A DNA stretch of 64,000 bases from an uncultured delta proteobacterium. GTDB lineage: Bacteria > Desulfobacterota > Syntrophia > Syntrophales > UBA2185. Within the stretch, counting starts at the first letter, position 1, and every line of letters begins with the position of its first letter. The position numbers were made by a program. Positions 21,001-30,000 of this stretch are shown one piece after another. Location: NCBI GenBank assembly GCA_963729715.1, contig CAVSPA010000006.1, forward strand, positions 288,001-352,000. The letters are read 5' to 3'.

Positions 21001-24000
21001 GGCTAAAGGCGAACAGGTGGATAAGATCCTGGGCTTTGAGATGGGGGCGGACGATTACATCACCAAGCCGTTCAATGTGAGAGAATTGATTGCCAGGGTC
21101 CGTGCGGTCCTGCGAAGGGCAGAAGTGCGTCCTGATTCGGAAAGAAGAGAGCAATTCGCGTACAAGGGCCTCCAGATCGATTACAGTTCTTACGAGGTCA
21201 CCGTAGACGGGAAGAAAATTGATCTTGGTCCCAGAGAACTGAAACTGTTGCAATTCCTCACAGGCCATCCCGGCAGGGTGTACACCAGAGATCAGCTTTT
21301 GGACTATGTCTGGGGGGATGAGACTTTCGTTGAGCCGCGCACAGTAGATGTGCATGTCAGCCATCTGAGGATGGCCATAGAAGAAGATAAAAAAAAACCG
21401 CAATACATTCTCACCGTCAGGGGTATCGGATATAAATTCGTAGATCTCAAATGATCTTTTTCACAAGTGTCCCGCCCTGTCCTTCATTTTTCATCATATC
21501 TTAACATTTGCTTAATCAAGATTTAACATTCATAGGCTACCGTACACCCGATTTCATTAGAAAGGAGGGTGCCATATAAGCTAAACAGAGGTTGTGTTAA
21601 GTGTTTTACCGGATTGTCGTAATAGATGACGAAGCATTCCAGAGGACCTTTCAAGGACATGCCCGGAAGGACCAATTTGGAAAAATCAAAAACAGGAGGA
21701 ACAGATGAGAAAGTTTTGGACAGTTTTACTATCGATTGTGTTGATCATGGCGTTCGCCTTGCCCGTATCTGCGGCGGATGTAAAGTTCAGCGGGTCGTAT
21801 GTGGCACAGGGCTACTACGACAACAACCGCGCGCTGTTGGCGAATGGCGGTGCGTCCTTATCCAATGTGTGGCAGAGGCTGAGGATTCAGACAGACTTCA
21901 AGGTTCAGGAAGGCCTGATGCTGACGACCCGGTTCGATGCCCTGGAAAAGATATGGGGCGCTGCCCGTTCTACAACCGCTACCTCAACCAATCTTGCCGG
22001 CAATGATGATGAATCCGAGAACATCAAGTTTGAGTATGCGTTTGCGACGTTTAATATTCCCGGCAATGTTGGCACTTTAAAAGTGGGTTATCAGCAGCAG
22101 GGCACATGGGGTACGGCATTTGGTGACACGGGCGAGACGGACTATGGGATGAGGGTCAAGTGGGATTGGGTAACCGGTTCTTTCTTCTGGGGAGCCCGTT
22201 GGGATAAGGTGGAAGGAAAGAAGTCTTACAGCAGTCTCGGTCCTGCCGGCAATCTCAACGTATCCACTTATGTTGTGGACCACGACTCGGAAAAGTATTC
22301 TGTTCTCGGCGGGTACACCTGGAGCAAGGGTGACGCCGGTCTGCAAATCACATATTATATCGATACCAGCCCTGACGATAATCCTGCCACTGGATATAAA
22401 GCAAGGTACATCCTGTGGTATCCGTATGCCAGGGCGACGTTCGGTCCTGTTTATGTCGAGACAGAGTGGGGTTGGTACACGGGTAAAAGACAAGAGTACA
22501 GTAATGCCGCAACCCACGTGGACCAAGATTATACAGGCTGGCGCGGTTATATCATGGCCAGTCTTGACCTTGCACCGGCCTATGTAGGCGCTTTGGCATT
22601 CTATTCGTCGGGTACTGATATAACTTCACTAAATACGTATTCAGGTGGAGCCAAGATTGGTACCGACTTTCAGCCCTGCCTGATTCTCTGGAACTACGAT
22701 CTCGGCAGGTGGAACGGCGCGTTGGGTGGTCAGAATGGTCTTTCCAATGCTGCCGCGAATGGTAGCACGGGACCTGGTAACGTGGGTGGCTACAATTCGG
22801 ACAATGTTATAGCATGGCAGATATTCGCCGGCATCAAGCCCATACCAAAGCTTGATATAAAGGCGAGCTTCACTGGCGCTAGTATGGACCAGAATGTAGT
22901 TGTCAATCAGATCTCGAAAAATATCGGTGAGGAATTTGATCTCAGCGCAACCTACAAGATATATGACAATCTGTCGTACATGGTGGGCTTTGGCTACCTG
23001 TGGGCAGGCGATGCCTTTATGGGCAGCAATTCCAATGCCCAACTCAGTAACGACTATCTCTTGACGCACAAGCTGACACTTAGTTTTTAGCATAGCTGAC
23101 ACAAATTCCGTTACACTCCAAAGAGCCCCGGGACCAACTCCGGGGCTCCTTGGATGATCATTTCTTGCCGCAGTACATGTCCACCTTCAGATGAACAGGA
23201 TATAGGCTTGCAGAGCCGGAATTAACTCTATCAGAAGCTCGTAATTGTCCTGTCTCGCTTGTCACTCTTCACTATATCTTAATATTCGTTTAATACCACT
23301 TTAATATTGCTCGGCTACTATGTTGCCGAATCACGATGCAGGAGGGTTTGATATGAACTGGGGCGAAGCTGCTTCAGATTTATTGCACAAGGAGATAGGC
23401 AACGATAACGGAAACGTCCCATCGGCCCGAAGGATTATGGAAATGCTCGATGTCTTCGGTCTCTTCGGCGTGAAAATAAATTCCCTTCCGTTTGCACTTC
23501 GTGACACAACAGCAGGAAGCGAGACGGAGCTGCAAGCTGTCGTTGTCGGCGACAAGGGCAAGGTCGACCTTCCCATTACCATCGAGCAATCCAATTATTT
23601 TGCCAACATTGTCAGGCGTGCAATGGCGGGCGATACGACAAAGAAGATTGTCACAGACCTCGAGAGATTTCTGAATACGAATACGGAAAATGTGTGGGAA
23701 CACAGCTGGGTTCGCTTTCCCCGGAATCGCTTGAGTCCCTTTGCCGCAGATATATTCAAACGCGACATTCTGGCAGATAAAGAACATCCGTCAAAAGGAG
23801 TGAGAGAAGACGTACACAAATTCATATTTTCCAACGAGGGTGAAGAGTCTATACGTTTGCCGATAAGCTATATGATCAAACTGTGCCTCGCGGATGTCCT
23901 CGGTTCACAGAAGAATGCTCCGTCATTGATTTACGGCACCGGATGCAGATTGTTGCATCATTTTCTGAATGACAACACCTCTCCGGAGTCCTTCTCGTTT

Positions 24001-27000: not shown

Positions 27001-30000
27001 AGCGCAAATGCCTATCTGGTAGCCGTGGCGATGATGCTCGTTCTCTTCGGCGCAATTAGAGTTGACATAAAAGCGACTTTCGCCCTCGTTTTTATCATGA
27101 TGGCTTTCTGTCTTCCTATGGCGAGAATAATCGCCATGATTGTGGAAAAAAAAGCACATACGCGAACTGTGGGCGGCGCGGTTTTCGCTGGGACGCTGGT
27201 TGCGCCCCTGGCGATATCGCTAGTCAATAGAATCATGGGGCCCGCGATTTCCATTCCCATTATGCCTGCCATGGCCGCTTTGGCAATTTCCTATTCTTAC
27301 GGAGAAGGGATGGGGCGGCTCGCCTGTATCAGCTTCGGCTGCTGTTATGGGAAGCAGCTTTCTCAATGTACGCCTTTTCTGCAGACGTTATTTGGGAAGC
27401 GCAACTTTATTTTTTCTGGAAAGATCAAGAAGATAGCCTATGAAAGTGGACTGGATGGAGAACATGTTGTTCCCATACAGGCTGTAACATCGGTCTTGTA
27501 TATAGCAACAGGTATTACCTGCACGTATCTTTTCCTCAACACCCACTATGTCGCTTCCTTCCTGGTTTCCGTGCTGGTCACTCAGGGCTGGAGATCCGTG
27601 TCAGAAATATTCCGAGCCGATCACCGCGGAGAAAGCCGTATTTCCGTCTATCAAATTATGGGAATTGTTGCGATCATCTATTCGTTCATTCTGTGGAAAT
27701 GGTTCCCCGATTCAAACCCGATGGCGTATGCTTTGGAGGGCATCCAGACACTATGGCAGCCGGAGATTATAATCTTCCTGCTGCTGTTATGGTTGGGTAT
27801 TTTCCTCCATACCGGTTGCAGCAAAGTGACGGGATCAATAGTATCTTTTCATGTTCACGAGGACAGGATTTAATACAGGTTTCCCCTTTGAAAAAGGGCA
27901 GAGGGATTTTACAAGCGGGAGAACCCTCAGGAGGATTAAGGATAGCAATATGAAACCGGAAAATCTTCGACGTATAAAGAAACGTCTCCTCCGCAGATTA
28001 AATGAACTCCAATTTGAGGCGATTCATGCTGCCTTTGAGAAAGGGGCTACGGATGATAACCCTGCGGATTTCGTGGATAAGGCATCGAGGGAATTTGAGC
28101 TAAATGCACAGCTGATGATGAAAGAAAGGAAGAGGGCGCTTATACAAGAGCTTCAGGGGGCAATTATGCGCATTGATCGGGGGGTATTCGGGATTTGTGA
28201 GATTTGTGAAGGCCGGATATCGGAAAGAAGGCTGCTCGCAATACCCACGAGCCGTTCTTGCATAGCCTGCATGGAGAAAGAAGGAAATCCCAAAGCTGCA
28301 TAGATATTTCCCGGGTCCCTCCCGGACCCGTCACAACTGACAGGGACATAGGAAGAACAACTGGCGAAAGTGCGGATGATCAGAGACGAAATCAGAGCGG
28401 CGATAGAATCCTGGTATGAGAAACTTGCCACGCAATGAAGTTTCGACCAGCCAATCCCACTCGATCAAAAATGAGAGTCGAGGAAAATCAGCTTTCGGAA
28501 CAGGCAAGGTTGCTCTCCTGGTTCTGGCCGCGACTATCCTCGCTTTTCTTTATGGGACGACAGCAGGGTCTACCACTGCAATTATCAATGTAGTTCAGTT
28601 TCAAACGATTGTTTCAAGAAGCGGTCTTCCAGCGGACTGGTCCCTGCAAAGATACAGAGGAACACCTTCCTTCAAGATCAACCAAAACGCCTTGCCCCCC
28701 CATTTGCAAATGACAAGCAGCGGGGAGACCGCCTTCGGTTTTCAGAGGGAAATTTACGTCGATATTCGGGCATACCCTTATCTCTGCTGGTCATGGAAAG
28801 CGACGAAACTGCCTGTCGGCGGTGATATCAGAAAGAAAGATAGTGACGATCAAAGCATTCAGATCTATCTCAGCCTTCAAATCCCCGGCGAGGGGGGTCT
28901 CTTTTCGTTGCCTCCGGCGCTTGCATATATATGGGATAACGAAGCGCCGACAGATATCTTGGTCAAGAGTCCTCAGGCAATGTTGAGTAATGTCCGGTAT
29001 CTTGTACTGCGGAATGGGAAGGATAACCTCGGGACGTGGTTTACGGAAAAGAGAAATATTCTTAAGGATGTTTATCGGGCATTTGGTCAGCCCTCATCAG
29101 GAAACAGGCCGATCATGGTCAAGGGCGTGTTGCTTTTCATCAATACGCACCACACGAAAAGTGATGCGGAAAGCTGTATAGGCAATATATACTTTTCTAG
29201 TCAATAGAATTATAAGATTACGCGATTACACTTGCCTGTTATAAACTGTGGCTCATGACAAAGCGTTTGTTCATAATACTATGCATTTTGTTAACCATTG
29301 CCGCTATGATCTGCTTTTATGCCTTGTCCGGCAGCAGGGTTTCTAAATCAGTATTGTCGTGGACCAAGGGTGTCAGCAAAGAAGATGATGCTTCACAATG
29401 GTTCAAGATAAGAAGAATGAAAAGAACAAGAGGTGTCGCGCTTGTAGTGCATGGCCTCAACTTGAGACCCGAAAGAATGCAATCCATCATAGCTGAACTC
29501 AATGACGAGCGAATCGATGTTCTTAACCTGTCACTCAGAGGCCATGGCAACAACTATTTGAAGAATATGAACGTCTCCATAGACGGAGCAAGACTGGAAT
29601 CTTTTCGGACCGTCACATACGGTCTATGGTCGGATGAGATTTATGAGGCTTATCTGAAAGTGAGAGATAGAGCCTCAAGAAAAAATGTCCCCACTTTTTT
29701 TATCGGCTATTCCCTCGGCGGGTTGATGGGTTGCGATCTTATCCTGTCACATCCTGATGTGTCTTATGACCGTATGGTTCTTTTCGCGCCCTCTTTAAAT
29801 ATGACAGTGGAAAGCTACCTTTTAAAGGCCCTGATGCCCTTTCCAAATATCGTTATAGACAGTTTATCTCCCGTATCTTATCGGGCAAACGAAGGTACAC
29901 CCATGGCGGCTTACAAGGCTTTAATCGAAGCCATTGAGCATTTTGAAAAAAATGTAAATGATAAAGTGAACAAGCCGACGCTCATCTTTATCGATGAAAA

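What a model noticed while it worked through the whole genome (the two positions that open the first line are those of the whole stretch)
23353..27873. Conserved three-gene operon: an 818-aa protein of no known family with extra PS-decarboxylase-like and Lgt-like genes, s [...]
g02110 (818 aa, cytoplasmic, no Pfam/NCBIfam/PDB match) is followed by a second phosphatidylserine-decarboxylase-like gene (g02111, self-cleavage motif G-S-S kept) and a second, divergent Lgt-like membrane gene (g02112). The genome has the ordinary pss-psd pair and lgt elsewhere. The trio keeps the same order in distant Desulfobacterota. Here it lies behind a PhoB-type regulator and a porin, inside a 28-kb stretch of phosphate genes. 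I propose that the trio makes a modified, possibly phosphorus-free amino-lipid when phosphate is short: the Lgt-like enzyme moves a diacylglyceryl group onto a carboxylated head group, the Psd-like enzyme decarboxylates it, and g02110 supplies or activates that [...]
Evidence so far: g02110 matches 0 Pfam families at E<=0.05 and 0 PADLOC families. It has no PDB sequence match by phmmer (E<=1, call 73) or by a 26-sequence profile (best E 0.88, call 125). Its ESM-Atlas neighbours are only unnamed clusters of ~820-835 aa. The family has 2937 database proteins at E<=1e-30. The best 120 are 775-844 aa and 59-90% identical over 90-100% of the length, and all those that carry a name are called 'hypothetical protein'. 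They come from Syntrophales, Geobacteraceae, Syntrophobacterales and a 'Candidatus Wunengus' bin. More than 100 columns are invariant in 26 sequences. Of 150 other Desulfobacterota genomes, 11 have it at 50-58% identity and full length. In all 4 loci fetched, the P [...]
(Added by a program. Inside this text positions count along the whole contig: contig position 288,001 is position 1 of the stretch shown here. "Call 12" and the like, gene names such as g00115 and contig names such as C1 are that model's own, and its searches are not shown. The text may have been shortened before it was handed on; [...] marks where a part breaks off. The agent that wrote the report below was given it as the finding of a first reader that could run no searches.)

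Follow-up and report, generated by a model that had tools for sequence, protein, structure and literature searches.

The report
Phosphate-starvation operon for sulfur aminolipid
Three linked genes behind a phosphate-starvation promoter probably turn an ordinary membrane phospholipid into a phosphorus-free, cysteine-linked lipid of a class reported in 2024 without known genes.

Summary
Window 23353-27873 carries an 818-aa protein with no Pfam, NCBIfam or PDB sequence match. It is followed by a phosphatidylserine-decarboxylase (PSD) paralogue and a divergent Lgt paralogue. Ordinary pss-psd and lgt genes lie elsewhere in the genome.

New here:
- The 818-aa protein folds like the ATP-dependent carboxylate-amine ligases (PafA, Dop, YbdK, GshF, GshA; Z 13.2-13.5; next unrelated row 4.6).
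- The Lgt paralogue keeps the catalytic Arg network. It loses His103 of the peptide-binding motif, gains two helices, and its charge bias predicts a cavity open to the cytoplasm (61 of 61 sequences).
- A Pho-box-like array of 11-bp repeats sits before the ligase gene. It resembles those before phoB, the porin gene and pstS.
- The PSD-like gene follows the ligase gene in 68 of 70 testable loci.

Ligation of Glu to Cys, S-diacylglyceryl transfer and one decarboxylation give exactly the formula of the 'BACys' lipids that Desulfatibacillum alkenivorans makes under phosphate limitation (Ding 2024). My paper searches found no genes named for them.

Nothing here is biochemical. I could not check whether the BACys producer holds the trio. 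This scan reached the same reading before on other genomes (at least nine notes).

The parts
20586..20618 (+). Pho-box-like repeats before the phoB-like gene
   Evidence: One of only 4 genome matches to TTCAYN6TTAAYN8AAY; reference site for the consensus test.
20744..21454 (+). PhoB-type response regulator
   Evidence: TIGR02154 E 1.4e-82, 276 bits (cut-off 296); Response_reg + Trans_reg_C.
21489..21532 (+). Pho-box-like array (four 11-bp repeats) before the porin gene
   Evidence: It scores 17 of 24 against the phoB+pstS2 consensus; 37 of 7.5 million genome positions score as high.
21705..23090 (+). Outer-membrane porin (DESULF_POR1-like), probably a separate Pho-controlled unit
   Evidence: NF033939 E 3.5e-18, under its cut-off. 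A porin homologue also lies upstream in some related loci.
23117..23154 (+). Strong hairpin after the porin gene (terminator-like, no clear U tract)
   Evidence: -28.1 kcal/mol, z -3.97, 0 of 200 shuffles fold as well.
23267..23310 (+). Pho-box-like array (four 11-bp repeats: CTTCACTATAT CTTAATATTCG TTTAATACCAC TTTAATATTGC)
   Evidence: It scores 16 of 24 against the phoB+pstS2 consensus; 207 of 7.5 million positions score as high. It is near-identical in layout to the porin array.
23316..23321 (+). Putative -10 hexamer TACTAT directly after the repeats
   Evidence: Read from the sequence; inference only.
23353..25809 (+). 818-aa ligase-fold protein (g02110), an unnamed family
   Evidence: No Pfam, NCBIfam or PDB sequence match. 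AF2 model pLDDT 75, pTM 0.84. The top 18 structural rows are all GS/GCL/PafA-type ligases, Z 13.5 to 5.8. E57, E59, H353, E537 and R539 are invariant in 39 diverse members.
25790..26794 (+). PSD-family pyruvoyl decarboxylase paralogue (g02111)
   Evidence: PF02666 E 5.5e-36. NCBIfam equivalog cut-offs are not reached (138 against 371 bits). D119, H173 and G277-S278 align with E. coli Psd.
26830..27873 (+). Lgt-family diacylglyceryl transferase paralogue (g02112), predicted inverted topology
   Evidence: PF01790 E 2.4e-9. AF2 pLDDT 91. 5azb is the only Foldseek hit at E<=1e-3 and gives Z 13.0 over model residues 26-294. Residue map and charge bias.
27851..28303 (+). DksA/TraR-type C4 zinc-finger protein, a frequent rider in the operon (true start perhaps near 27950)
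   Evidence: PF01258, PF21157 and TIGR02420 under cut-off. It lies between or right after the psd-like and lgt-like genes in 14 of 80 related loci.
28416..30205 (+). DUF3047 protein and alpha/beta hydrolase (Hydrolase_4); possible accessories, not core
   Evidence: Adjacent only in the closest relative L005 and scattered in a few other loci.

Best explanation
The three genes form a PhoB-controlled pathway that converts a phospholipid into a phosphorus-free, thioether-linked aminolipid on the cytoplasmic face of the inner membrane. Four steps are inferred.

1. The 818-aa enzyme is an ATP-dependent carboxylate-amine ligase. It joins the gamma-carboxyl of glutamate to the amino group of cysteine, as glutamate-cysteine ligase does.
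2. The Lgt paralogue sits in the membrane the other way round from Lgt. It moves the diacylglyceryl (or ether-core) group from phosphatidylglycerol onto the thiol of that dipeptide. This releases glycerol-1-phosphate inside the cell, where its phosphate can be recovered.
3. The PSD paralogue is a self-cleaving pyruvoyl enzyme. It removes the alpha-carboxyl of the glutamyl end, as PSD does for phosphatidylserine.
4. The product is S-diacylglyceryl-N-(4-aminobutanoyl)cysteine. It has the composition of the 'butyramide cysteine glycerol' (BACys) lipids of phosphate-starved Desulfatibacillum alkenivorans.

Shown here: gene order, family and fold assignments, conserved residues, charge bias, the repeat arrays and the formula match. 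Inferred: every substrate, the order of steps, the regulation and the product.
For: Ligase fold: PafA 4bjr Z 13.5 (357 aligned, rmsd 3.8), Dop 13.5, YbdK 1tt4 13.4 (331 of 354), GshF 13.4, GshA 1v4g 13.2 (408), then plant GCL and glutamine synthetases. The first unrelated row has Z 4.6.

Ligase residues: E57-x-E59, E116 (33 of 39), H353 and E537-x-R539 occur in the same order as E27-x-E29, E67, H150 and E328-x-R330 of E. coli GshA (sequence; conservation). A passage in PMC12817896 names these numbers as magnesium ligands.

The own genome, 100% complete by markers, has no PF04262, PF04107 or PF02955 match. No other route to gamma-Glu-Cys was found in it.

PSD paralogue: D119, H173 and the G277-S278 cleavage site are kept.

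Lgt paralogue:
- It keeps Y54, R163, G174, R255, E259 and R262, which correspond to Lgt Y26, R143, G154, R239, E243 and R246. Each is kept in 60 or 61 of 61 sequences. Their roles are described in Mao 2016.
- H103, proposed there to bind the lipobox peptide, is V, A, T, I or S, never H among the residues listed.
- K+R averages 19.7 on the side that matches Lgt's periplasmic side and 2.4 on the other, with the first count higher in 61 of 61 sequences.
- One N-terminal and one C-terminal helix lie outside the Lgt core.

Regulation:
- TTCAYN6TTAAYN8AAY occurs 4 times in 3.76 Mb: before phoB, the porin gene, this gene and pstS2.
- Against a consensus drawn from phoB and pstS2 alone, this site ranks within the top 207 of 7.5 million positions.
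- In 76 related loci, 17 have phased repeats upstream on the sense strand, against 4 on the reverse strand and 0.7 expected from shuffles.
- Pho genes flank 24 of 80 loci.

Linkage: the PSD-like gene directly follows the ligase gene in 68 of 70 testable loci. The Lgt-like gene lies within 2.2 kb in 51 of 63 and elsewhere in the locus in 5. In 5 of the 7 remaining loci whose genomes I searched, 4 hold a full-length copy.

Chemistry: DAG(32:0) C35H68O5 + C7H14N2O3S - H2O gives C42H80N2O7S. The paper's table lists BACys-DAG(32:0) [M+H]+ as C42H81O7N2S and the head fragment as C7H13O3N2S+. These lipids appear only at 0.0005-0.0015 mM phosphate.
Against: No sequence-level link joins the 818-aa family to any ligase family. 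Pfam gave nothing consistent at E<=10 for 39 members. hhalign probability was 0.2 against GshA and 0.07 against 28 GCS2 proteins. The residue correspondence rests on motif order, not on a superposition.

Parts of the model's core are of low confidence (residues 296-349 and 509-539).

Lgt N146 and E151 are replaced by invariant Cys, and E151A/Q inactivates E. coli Lgt. Catalysis may therefore differ, or be lost.

The topology is predicted from charge alone.

The BACys structure is tentative (MS2 only). Its formula fits at least two isomers, and it also fits an ester link. The paper's SI appendix could not be read.

Whether D. alkenivorans has the trio is untested. No expression data exist. Only 24 of 80 loci show Pho genes in their flanks, and only 17 of 76 show my repeat pattern.
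Confidence: 0.55

Rival explanations
1. Same pathway and same kind of lipid, but in another order. The Lgt paralogue first puts diacylglyceryl on free cysteine. S-diacylglyceryl-cysteine resembles phosphatidylserine with sulfur in place of phosphate. The PSD paralogue turns it into S-diacylglyceryl-cysteamine. The ligase then adds glutamate through its gamma-carboxyl to that lipid amine, much as PafA couples a glutamate side chain to an amine. The product is S-diacylglyceryl-N-(gamma-glutamyl)cysteamine, an isomer of the product in the best explanation.
For: The head group has the same formula, C7H14N2O3S, so it fits the published masses equally well (my arithmetic). PafA and Dop tie with the GCL enzymes at the top of the fold search. 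The PSD paralogue would then act on a close analogue of its family's normal substrate (inference).
Against: The authors read the fragments as an intact cysteine plus a butyramide, which suits the other isomer better. The ligase has no predicted membrane segment and would have to work on a membrane-bound amine. Nothing in my data separates the two orders.
Confidence: 0.2
2. The trio modifies some other thiol or amine. Candidates are a small peptide, a protein or a cofactor-like molecule, including a special lipoprotein or another envelope molecule. The link to BACys would then be a coincidence of formula.
For: Substrates are not shown for any of the three enzymes. PafA-type ligases act on proteins (and general knowledge of the family). 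The invariant Cys triad in the Lgt paralogue is unexplained.
Against: No conserved small ORF or lipobox-bearing gene travels with the trio in the loci I tabulated, though I did not search for short ORFs. H103 of the peptide-binding HGGL motif is lost. The predicted cytoplasm-facing cavity does not suit exported lipoproteins. The Pho-linked context points to phosphate economy.
Confidence: 0.12
3. The PSD-like and Lgt-like genes are spare copies of the housekeeping enzymes, making phosphatidylethanolamine and acylating lipoproteins under stress. The 818-aa protein is functionally unrelated and only linked by position.
For: Both genes pass the Pfam cut-offs of their families.
Against: Neither reaches an NCBIfam equivalog cut-off: 138 against 371 bits for PSD, and no match for Lgt. 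Identity to the housekeeping copies is 17-27%. Defining Lgt residues are changed in all 61 sequences. The ligase and PSD-like genes overlap by 20 nt and stay adjacent in 68 of 70 loci across several phyla.
Confidence: 0.05

Closest known systems
Lgt, phosphatidylglycerol:prolipoprotein diacylglyceryl transferase (PF01790; E. coli structure 5AZB; Mao et al. 2016, PMC4728403, passages read)
   Same: Seven-helix core fold: Z 13.0, 228 of 284 residues aligned, and the only Foldseek hit at E<=1e-3. The counterparts of Y26, R143, G154, R239, E243 and R246 are kept. The expected chemistry is the same: a thioether from a thiol and the glyceryl C3 of phosphatidylglycerol.
   Different: Identity is 24%. 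H103 is lost. N146 and E151 are replaced by Cys, with a third invariant Cys beside them. The K/R-rich cytoplasmic loops of Lgt are missing. One helix is added at each end. The charge bias is reversed, which predicts a cavity open to the cytoplasm. The presumed acceptor is a small molecule, not a prolipoprotein.
Phosphatidylserine decarboxylase (PF02666; E. coli Psd)
   Same: Domain match at E 5.5e-36. Asp, His and the Gly-Ser self-cleavage site are kept, so a pyruvoyl-dependent amino-acid decarboxylase acting on a lipid head group is expected.
   Different: Identity to E. coli Psd and to the genome's own Psd is 26-27%. It carries an extra N-terminal stretch of about 90 residues and stays under all NCBIfam equivalog cut-offs. 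The presumed substrate is a glutamyl or cysteinyl thioether lipid, not phosphatidylserine.
Glutamate-cysteine ligases GshA, GshF and YbdK/GCS2, and the Pup ligase/deamidase PafA/Dop (glutamine-synthetase-fold carboxylate-amine ligases)
   Same: Fold: Z 13.2-13.5 over 331-408 residues. The invariant acidic, His and Arg residues come in the same order as the metal and nucleotide ligands of GshA.
   Different: Sequence similarity is undetectable. The protein is about 300 residues larger, with insertions and a helical C-terminal part. It is always linked to lipid enzymes, and the genome has no glutathione synthetase.
BACys ('N-butyramide cysteine glycerol') lipids of Desulfatibacillum alkenivorans PF2803 (Ding et al. 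2024, PMC11181052; abstract, sections 5 and 13 and supplementary table 1 read)
   Same: The elemental composition of head group and whole lipid equals the predicted product. The lipids appear only under phosphate limitation. Their diacyl, acyl/ether and diether cores are those of the phospholipids they replace, as expected from head-group exchange.
   Different: That work describes a lipid, not genes. The structure is tentative. The organism is another member of the phylum, and I could not query its genome.
Known phosphate-starvation lipid replacement systems (ornithine lipid OlsBA/OlsF, betaine lipid BtaAB, PlcP-Agt glycolipids, SQDG); named from my own knowledge and from the discussion in PMC11181052
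   Same: Phosphorus-free lipids replace phospholipids under Pho-type control.
   Different: None uses an Lgt, a PSD or a GS-fold ligase homologue, and none makes a thioether-linked head group.

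Membership tests
Lgt (PF01790) | Pfam domain over the gathering score, and the Lgt fold | tested here: met
   37.3 bits against a cut-off of 24.9, covering profile positions 9-239 of 240. 5azb gives Foldseek E 2.9e-4 and VIA Z 13.0; the next row has Z 4.8.
Lgt (PF01790) | Catalytic Arg network (R143, R239, E243, R246) plus Y26 and G154 | tested here: met
   R163, R255, E259, R262 and G174 are kept in 61 of 61 sequences and Y54 in 60 of 61. Their roles are given.
Lgt (PF01790) | H103 of the HGGL motif, and N146/E151 of the signature motif G142RLGNFINGELWG154 | tested here: not met
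   At the H103 position the call lists V 40, A 6, T 5, I 4 and S 2 of 61, and no His. N146 is C in 61 of 61 and E151 is C in 61 of 61. H103 and E151 mutants of E. coli Lgt are inactive.
Lgt (PF01790) | Active-site cavity facing the periplasm | tested here: not met
   This is a prediction only. K+R is 19.7 against 2.4, reversed relative to Lgt, in 61 of 61 sequences. An extra N-terminal helix precedes the core. No experimental topology exists.
Phosphatidylserine decarboxylase (PF02666) | Pfam domain over the gathering score | tested here: met
   124.5 bits against a cut-off of 22.
Phosphatidylserine decarboxylase (PF02666) | Gly-Ser self-cleavage site with conserved Asp and His | tested here: met
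   G277-S278 (PGSST), D119 and H173 are invariant in an alignment with E. coli Psd and the genome's own Psd. Naming them as the catalytic triad rests on my recall.
Phosphatidylserine decarboxylase (PF02666) | Equivalog-level match (same function as PSD) | tested here: not met
   The best NCBIfam model, NF001941, gives 138 bits against a cut-off of 371. All six models are under their cut-offs.
Glutamate-cysteine ligase (PF04262 GshA, PF04107 GCS2) | Sequence-profile match to the family | tested here: not met
   No Pfam hit at E<=10 in 39 members. hhalign probability is 0.2 against GshA and 0.07 against 28 GCS2 sequences.
Glutamate-cysteine ligase (PF04262 GshA, PF04107 GCS2) | GS-type ligase fold | tested here: met
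   1v4g Z 13.2, 3nzt 12.6, 1tt4 13.4, 3ln7 13.4 and 2gwc 10.3. The model has pTM 0.84.
Glutamate-cysteine ligase (PF04262 GshA, PF04107 GCS2) | Metal and nucleotide ligands (GshA E27, E29, E67, H150, E328, R330) | tested here: inconclusive
   Invariant E57, E59, H353, E537 and R539, plus E116 (33 of 39), lie in the same order on predicted strands. No residue-level superposition was available.
Pup ligase/deamidase PafA/Dop (PF03136) | Fold similarity and family profile | tested here: inconclusive
   The fold rows tie for best (Z 13.5), but there is no Pfam match. I did not look for a pup gene or proteasome genes.
Pho regulon | PhoB-binding direct repeats in the place of the -35 region | tested here: inconclusive
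   Four 11-bp-phased repeats end 5 nt before a TACTAT hexamer. They resemble the phoB, pstS2 and porin sites, and similar repeats occur in 17 of 76 related loci. Binding and induction were not tested.
BACys lipid biosynthesis (no genes published, by my searches) | The producer organism carries the genes | not testable with these tools
   The one named-genome scan kept the best 80 of 579 relatives, and none was Desulfatibacillum. Searches gave no such name.
BACys lipid biosynthesis (no genes published, by my searches) | The predicted product equals the lipid's composition | tested here: met
   C42H81O7N2S for the 32:0 species and C7H13O3N2S+ for the head fragment equal the product computed for the three reactions. 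Isomers are not resolved.

The most novel reading that the evidence does not exclude
The trio is the missing gene set for thioether-linked, phosphorus-free 'sulfur-for-phosphorus' glycerolipids. Its key step is carried out by an Lgt-family enzyme that evolution has turned upside down in the membrane by adding one N-terminal helix. The enzyme can then diacylglycerylate a cytoplasmic gamma-glutamyl-cysteine instead of an exported protein, and it returns glycerol-1-phosphate to the cell. The 818-aa protein founds a new family of GS-fold ligases dedicated to lipid head groups. The pathway operates in hundreds of anaerobic species of several phyla, so its genes would mark phosphate stress in sediments, peat and soils.
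Probability: 0.45. Interest if true: 0.85.

Novelty: categorically new. Interest (0 to 1): 0.8.

Why it matters
It would assign genes to a lipid class described in 2024 without any. It would also add a fourth chemical way for bacteria to spare phosphorus in membranes, beside ornithine, betaine and glyco/sulfoquinovosyl lipids.

It would show that the Lgt fold, known only for lipoprotein maturation, can work on small molecules from the cytoplasmic side. It would name a family of more than 2800 'hypothetical proteins'.

The genes are common in Syntrophales, Geobacterales, Syntrophobacterales, anammox Brocadia and Acidobacteriota MAGs. They could therefore serve as markers for phosphate limitation and as a source assignment for sulfur-bearing lipid biomarkers in anoxic environments.

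The hypothesis can be tested directly by expressing three genes in a laboratory host and measuring one mass.

Tried and rejected
Sequence routes to a name for the 818-aa protein all failed:
- Pfam and NCBIfam.
- A PDB profile search, best E 0.62 to NifB over 31 residues.
- Pfam at E<=10 on 39 diverse members, only scattered single hits.
- hhalign against E. coli GshA.
- hhalign against 28 GCS2 proteins of the phylum. The first run used a global mode that was unsuitable, and I repeated it in local mode.
- Foldseek on the PDB, nothing at E<=1e-3. Only the all-against-representatives aligner showed the fold.
- ESM Atlas, only unnamed clusters.

Fused forms: none among proteins of 1433-4090 aa (weak evidence), and none among the 150 listed representatives.

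Desulfatibacillum: none of the 80 named loci came from it. Cluster look-ups of 10 representatives gave only MAG names. A search from a locus labelled Desulfobacteraceae returned Geobacter-type relatives. None of this is evidence of absence.

Expression: no RNA holder was listed for the region, and all holders had small shares. I laid no reads.

Other dead ends:
- The consensus promoter/terminator scan gave counts no higher than shuffles.
- A naive hydropathy caller gave inconsistent helices. I replaced it with segments mapped on the alignment and checked them against the AF2 helices.
- A column-mapped K/R control on classical Lgt was uninformative, because its K/R-rich loops are insertions absent from the paralogue.
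- Earlier-findings look-ups by place and by two word sets returned nothing.

Papers: searches found no work that names genes for BACys or describes this trio. The SI appendix of Ding 2024 could not be read and may hold structural detail that bears on the isomer question.

Considered and rejected: lipoprotein modification and spare housekeeping copies (see the rival explanations).

Full report
**What is there**

The window holds three co-oriented genes.
- g02110 runs from 23353 to 25809 (818 aa). An upstream ATG at 23320 would give 829 aa.
- A PSD-family gene runs from 25790 to 26794 (334 aa) and overlaps g02110's end by 20 nt.
- An Lgt-family gene runs from 26830 to 27873 (347 aa).

AGGAGGG lies 7 nt before the 23353 ATG, and the 23320 ATG falls inside the putative -10. 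I therefore take 818 aa as the product.

g02110 matches no Pfam or NCBIfam family at E<=0.1. Gene 2 matches PF02666 (E 5.5e-36) but stays far under every NCBIfam equivalog cut-off. Gene 3 matches PF01790 weakly (E 2.4e-9, 37 bits, cut-off 24.9) and has no NCBIfam model.

The genome has an ordinary psd next to a CDP-alcohol phosphatidyltransferase on contig 4. It has an ordinary lgt (253 bits) on contig 7.

Upstream lie a PhoB-like regulator and a porin. Downstream lie a DksA/TraR-type zinc finger, a DUF3047 protein and an alpha/beta hydrolase. After those come two PstS, PHO4, two PPK2, PhoH, Ppx, PPK1, CHAD, PstCAB, PhoU and a PhoR-like kinase.

**The family and its linkage**

g02110 has 2872 relatives at E<=0.001 among 7998 scored candidates. 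The best 120 are 775-844 aa long, and every one that carries a name is called hypothetical. A profile search of 50%-identity representatives finds 885 at E<=0.001 and 414 at E<=1e-30.

A scan of one genome per species confirmed 579 relatives among 594 pattern matches. The 80 best loci carry titles of Syntrophales, Geobacteraceae, Syntrophobacterales, Desulfuromonadales, Candidatus Brocadia, Blastocatellia, Terriglobia and others.

I ran tblastn with the window's proteins against these 80 loci.
- The PSD-like gene directly follows the ligase gene in 68 of 70 loci with enough downstream DNA.
- The Lgt-like gene follows within 2.2 kb in 51 of 63, lies elsewhere in the locus in 5, and was not seen within 6 kb in 7.
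- I searched the whole genomes of 5 of those 7. Four hold a full-length Lgt-like gene (48-51% identity) and one holds only a C-terminal piece. The other two were not searched.

In a sample of the phylum, 32 of 300 other genomes have the ligase. The distribution is patchy: 7 of 9 in one family, and 1 of 8 in the window's own order.

**What g02110 is**

An AlphaFold2 model built from 35 sequences has pLDDT 75 and pTM 0.84. Low-confidence stretches lie at 296-349, 417-424, 479-490 and 509-539.

Foldseek found nothing at E<=1e-3, only weak GshF and GshA rows. Alignment against 48,161 PDB representatives gave 18 top rows from a single superfamily.

| Structure | Z |
|---|---|
| PafA 4bjr | 13.5 |
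| Dop 9cku | 13.5 |
| YbdK 1tt4 | 13.4 |
| GshF 3ln7 | 13.4 |
| GshA 1v4g | 13.2 |
| GshA 3nzt | 12.6 |
| plant GCL | 10.3 |
| ten glutamine-synthetase-type enzymes and yeast GCL | 8.0 to 5.8 |
| first unrelated row | 4.6 |

This is the fold of ATP-dependent carboxylate-amine ligases.

Thirty-nine members reaching down to 34% identity keep E57, E59, H353, E537 and R539 without exception, and E116 in 33. In E. coli GshA the same order of residues is E27-R-E29, E67, H150 and E328-V-R330. A passage in PMC12817896 lists Glu-27, Glu-29, Glu-67, His-150 and Glu-328 as magnesium ligands of this enzyme type.

This correspondence rests on motif order only. Profile-profile comparison finds no sequence similarity to GshA (probability 0.2) or to 28 GCS2 proteins (0.07). 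Pfam finds nothing for any of the 39 members.

The own genome, 100% complete by markers, has no GshA, GCS2 or glutathione synthetase domain. g02110 is thus the only GCL-fold enzyme I could find in it.

**The PSD paralogue**

I aligned it with five paralogues, E. coli Psd and the genome's own Psd. D119, H173 and G277 are invariant, and the cleavage motif reads P-G-S-S-T. It should therefore mature into a pyruvoyl enzyme and decarboxylate a free alpha-amino acid end. It has an N-terminal stretch of about 90 residues that the classical enzymes lack.

**The Lgt paralogue**

Its AlphaFold2 model (40 sequences) has pLDDT 91. E. coli Lgt 5azb is the only Foldseek hit at E<=1e-3. It aligns at Z 13.0 over model residues 26-294 and chain residues 8-285, and the next row has Z 4.8. 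Helix 2-24 and the part after residue 294 (a short helix, helix 311-328 and a strand) are additions to the Lgt core.

Residue map, from passages of Mao et al. 2016 and 61 paralogues:
- Kept: Y26, R143, G154, R239, E243 and R246, as Y54, R163, G174, R255, E259 and R262.
- Lost: H103 of the HGGL motif, which the authors propose binds the lipobox peptide. It is V, A, T, I or S.
- Changed: N146 and E151 are Cys in all 61, with a third invariant Cys beside them.

The K/R-rich cytoplasmic loops of E. coli Lgt are absent. Lys plus Arg averages 19.7 on the side that corresponds to Lgt's periplasmic face and 2.4 on the other, with the first count higher in all 61 sequences.

By the positive-inside rule the core is inverted. 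A short acidic N-terminus would lie outside, helix 0 would act as a reverse anchor, and the catalytic cavity would open to the cytoplasm. This is a prediction, not a measurement. It fits an acceptor that is a cytoplasmic small thiol and does not fit exported lipoproteins.

**Regulation**

A strong hairpin follows the porin gene (-28 kcal/mol, z -4.0). Four 11-bp-phased repeats then run from 23267 to 23310 and end 5 nt before TACTAT. The porin promoter has an almost identical array, and the phoB-like and second pstS promoters share the first three repeats.

The pattern TTCAYN6TTAAYN8AAY occurs four times in the 3.76-Mb genome, at exactly these four places. I drew the pattern from these sites, so the informative result is that nothing else matches.

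A consensus from phoB and pstS2 alone (24 fixed positions) scores the porin site 17, and 37 of 7.5 million positions score as high. It scores the g02110 site 16, and 207 positions score as high. That is a chance of roughly 0.007 for a 260-nt region.

Among 76 related loci with enough upstream DNA, 17 carry two phased TTMAY repeats on the sense strand. That compares with 4 on the reverse strand and 0.7 expected from shuffles. Thirteen carry three repeats, against 2 on the reverse strand and 0 from shuffles. Pho genes flank 24 of 80 loci.

Pho control is therefore supported beyond this genome, though binding and induction remain untested. No RNA run holding the region was listed.

**The match to a known lipid**

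A note from an earlier run of this scan pointed to a 2024 lipid paper. I found and read it: Ding et al., PNAS 2024, PMC11181052 (abstract, sections 5 and 13, and supplementary table 1).

Under phosphate limitation, Desulfatibacillum alkenivorans replaces PE, PG and cardiolipin almost completely. The replacements are glucuronosyl lipids and sulfur-containing aminolipids tentatively named N-butyramide cysteine glycerols. Their head fragment is C7H13O3N2S+ (m/z 205.064), and their cores are diacyl, acyl/ether and diether. The paper names no genes.

The three reactions suggested by the operon give the following.
- Glu plus Cys gives gamma-Glu-Cys.
- The thiol takes diacylglyceryl from phosphatidylglycerol.
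- Loss of CO2 from the glutamyl end gives a 4-aminobutanoyl-cysteine head, C7H14N2O3S.

With a 32:0 diacylglycerol the lipid is C42H80N2O7S. The table lists C42H81O7N2S for [M+H]+ of BACys-DAG(32:0). The composition fits exactly.

The fit does not fix the structure. A second order of steps gives an isomer: cysteine first, decarboxylation to a cysteamine lipid, then gamma-glutamylation. An ester link would have the same formula as a thioether. The SI appendix with the spectra could not be read.

Nine paper searches found no paper that names genes for these lipids or describes this trio.

**What I could not do**

I could not ask whether D. alkenivorans holds the trio. The single named-genome scan returned only the 80 closest of 579 relatives. 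This is the most direct missing test.

**Standing**

I put 0.55 on the pathway as stated, 0.2 on the same pathway in the other order, and the rest on other acceptors or unrelated roles.

Earlier runs of this scan reached the same reading on at least nine other genomes. These notes are not independent evidence. I re-derived the fold, the topology argument, the Pho arrays and the formula here.

The parts belong to known superfamilies. The combination, the cytoplasm-facing Lgt and the product are not described in any paper I could search.

Noticed in passing
window 26830-27873 (residues C166, C171, C172): The Lgt paralogue carries an invariant triad of cysteines inside the Lgt signature motif (GRLACISFGCCYG), in 61 of 61 sequences. 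Its role is unknown; it could be a thiol relay, a covalent intermediate or a metal site.
   Followed up: partly
window 27851-28303: A DksA/TraR-type C4 zinc-finger gene overlaps the end of the Lgt-like gene. In 80 related loci it lies between the psd-like and lgt-like genes in 9, right after the lgt-like gene in 5, and elsewhere in 9. It may be a regulator that rides in the operon.
   Followed up: partly
window 21705-23090 with 21489-21532: The porin gene has its own Pho-box-like array, almost identical to that of the ligase gene. It may be a phosphate-starvation porin of the DESULF_POR1 type.
   Followed up: partly
window 40115-41650: A 511-aa ORF without any Pfam match at E<=1e-5 lies between hisB and the PIN-PhoH gene, inside the phosphate-gene stretch.
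   Followed up: no
window 37286-51761: A dense polyphosphate cluster: PPK2, PIN-PhoH, Ppx/GppA, a double-domain PPK2, PPK1, an HD-domain Ppx fragment, a metallophosphatase and a CYTH-CHAD protein.
   Followed up: no
window 4663-6603 (-): A 646-aa protein with PhoD_N / purple-acid-phosphatase N-terminal and fibronectin-III domains may be a secreted phosphatase.
   Followed up: no
L071 / G005:C1:956803-957114: In one Acidobacteriota MAG, only a C-terminal piece of the Lgt-like gene (residues 244-347, a 124-aa frame) was found downstream of the ligase and psd-like genes. The gene may be split or decayed.
   Followed up: no
G052:C12:75639-78017 and G181:C100:41558-43903: Two ligase homologues in the phylum sample carry one in-frame TAA each. 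They may be pseudogenes or sequencing errors.
   Followed up: no
L042 (Citrifermentans bremense R1): Here phoB-, phoR- and phoU-like genes sit between the ligase gene and the psd-like gene. The Lgt-like gene lies further on in the same contig.
   Followed up: partly
L031: A MAG contig titled 'uncultured Desulfobacteraceae' carries a ligase whose closest named relatives are all Geobacter, Trichlorobacter or Desulfuromonadaceae proteins. The label or the binning may be off.
   Followed up: no
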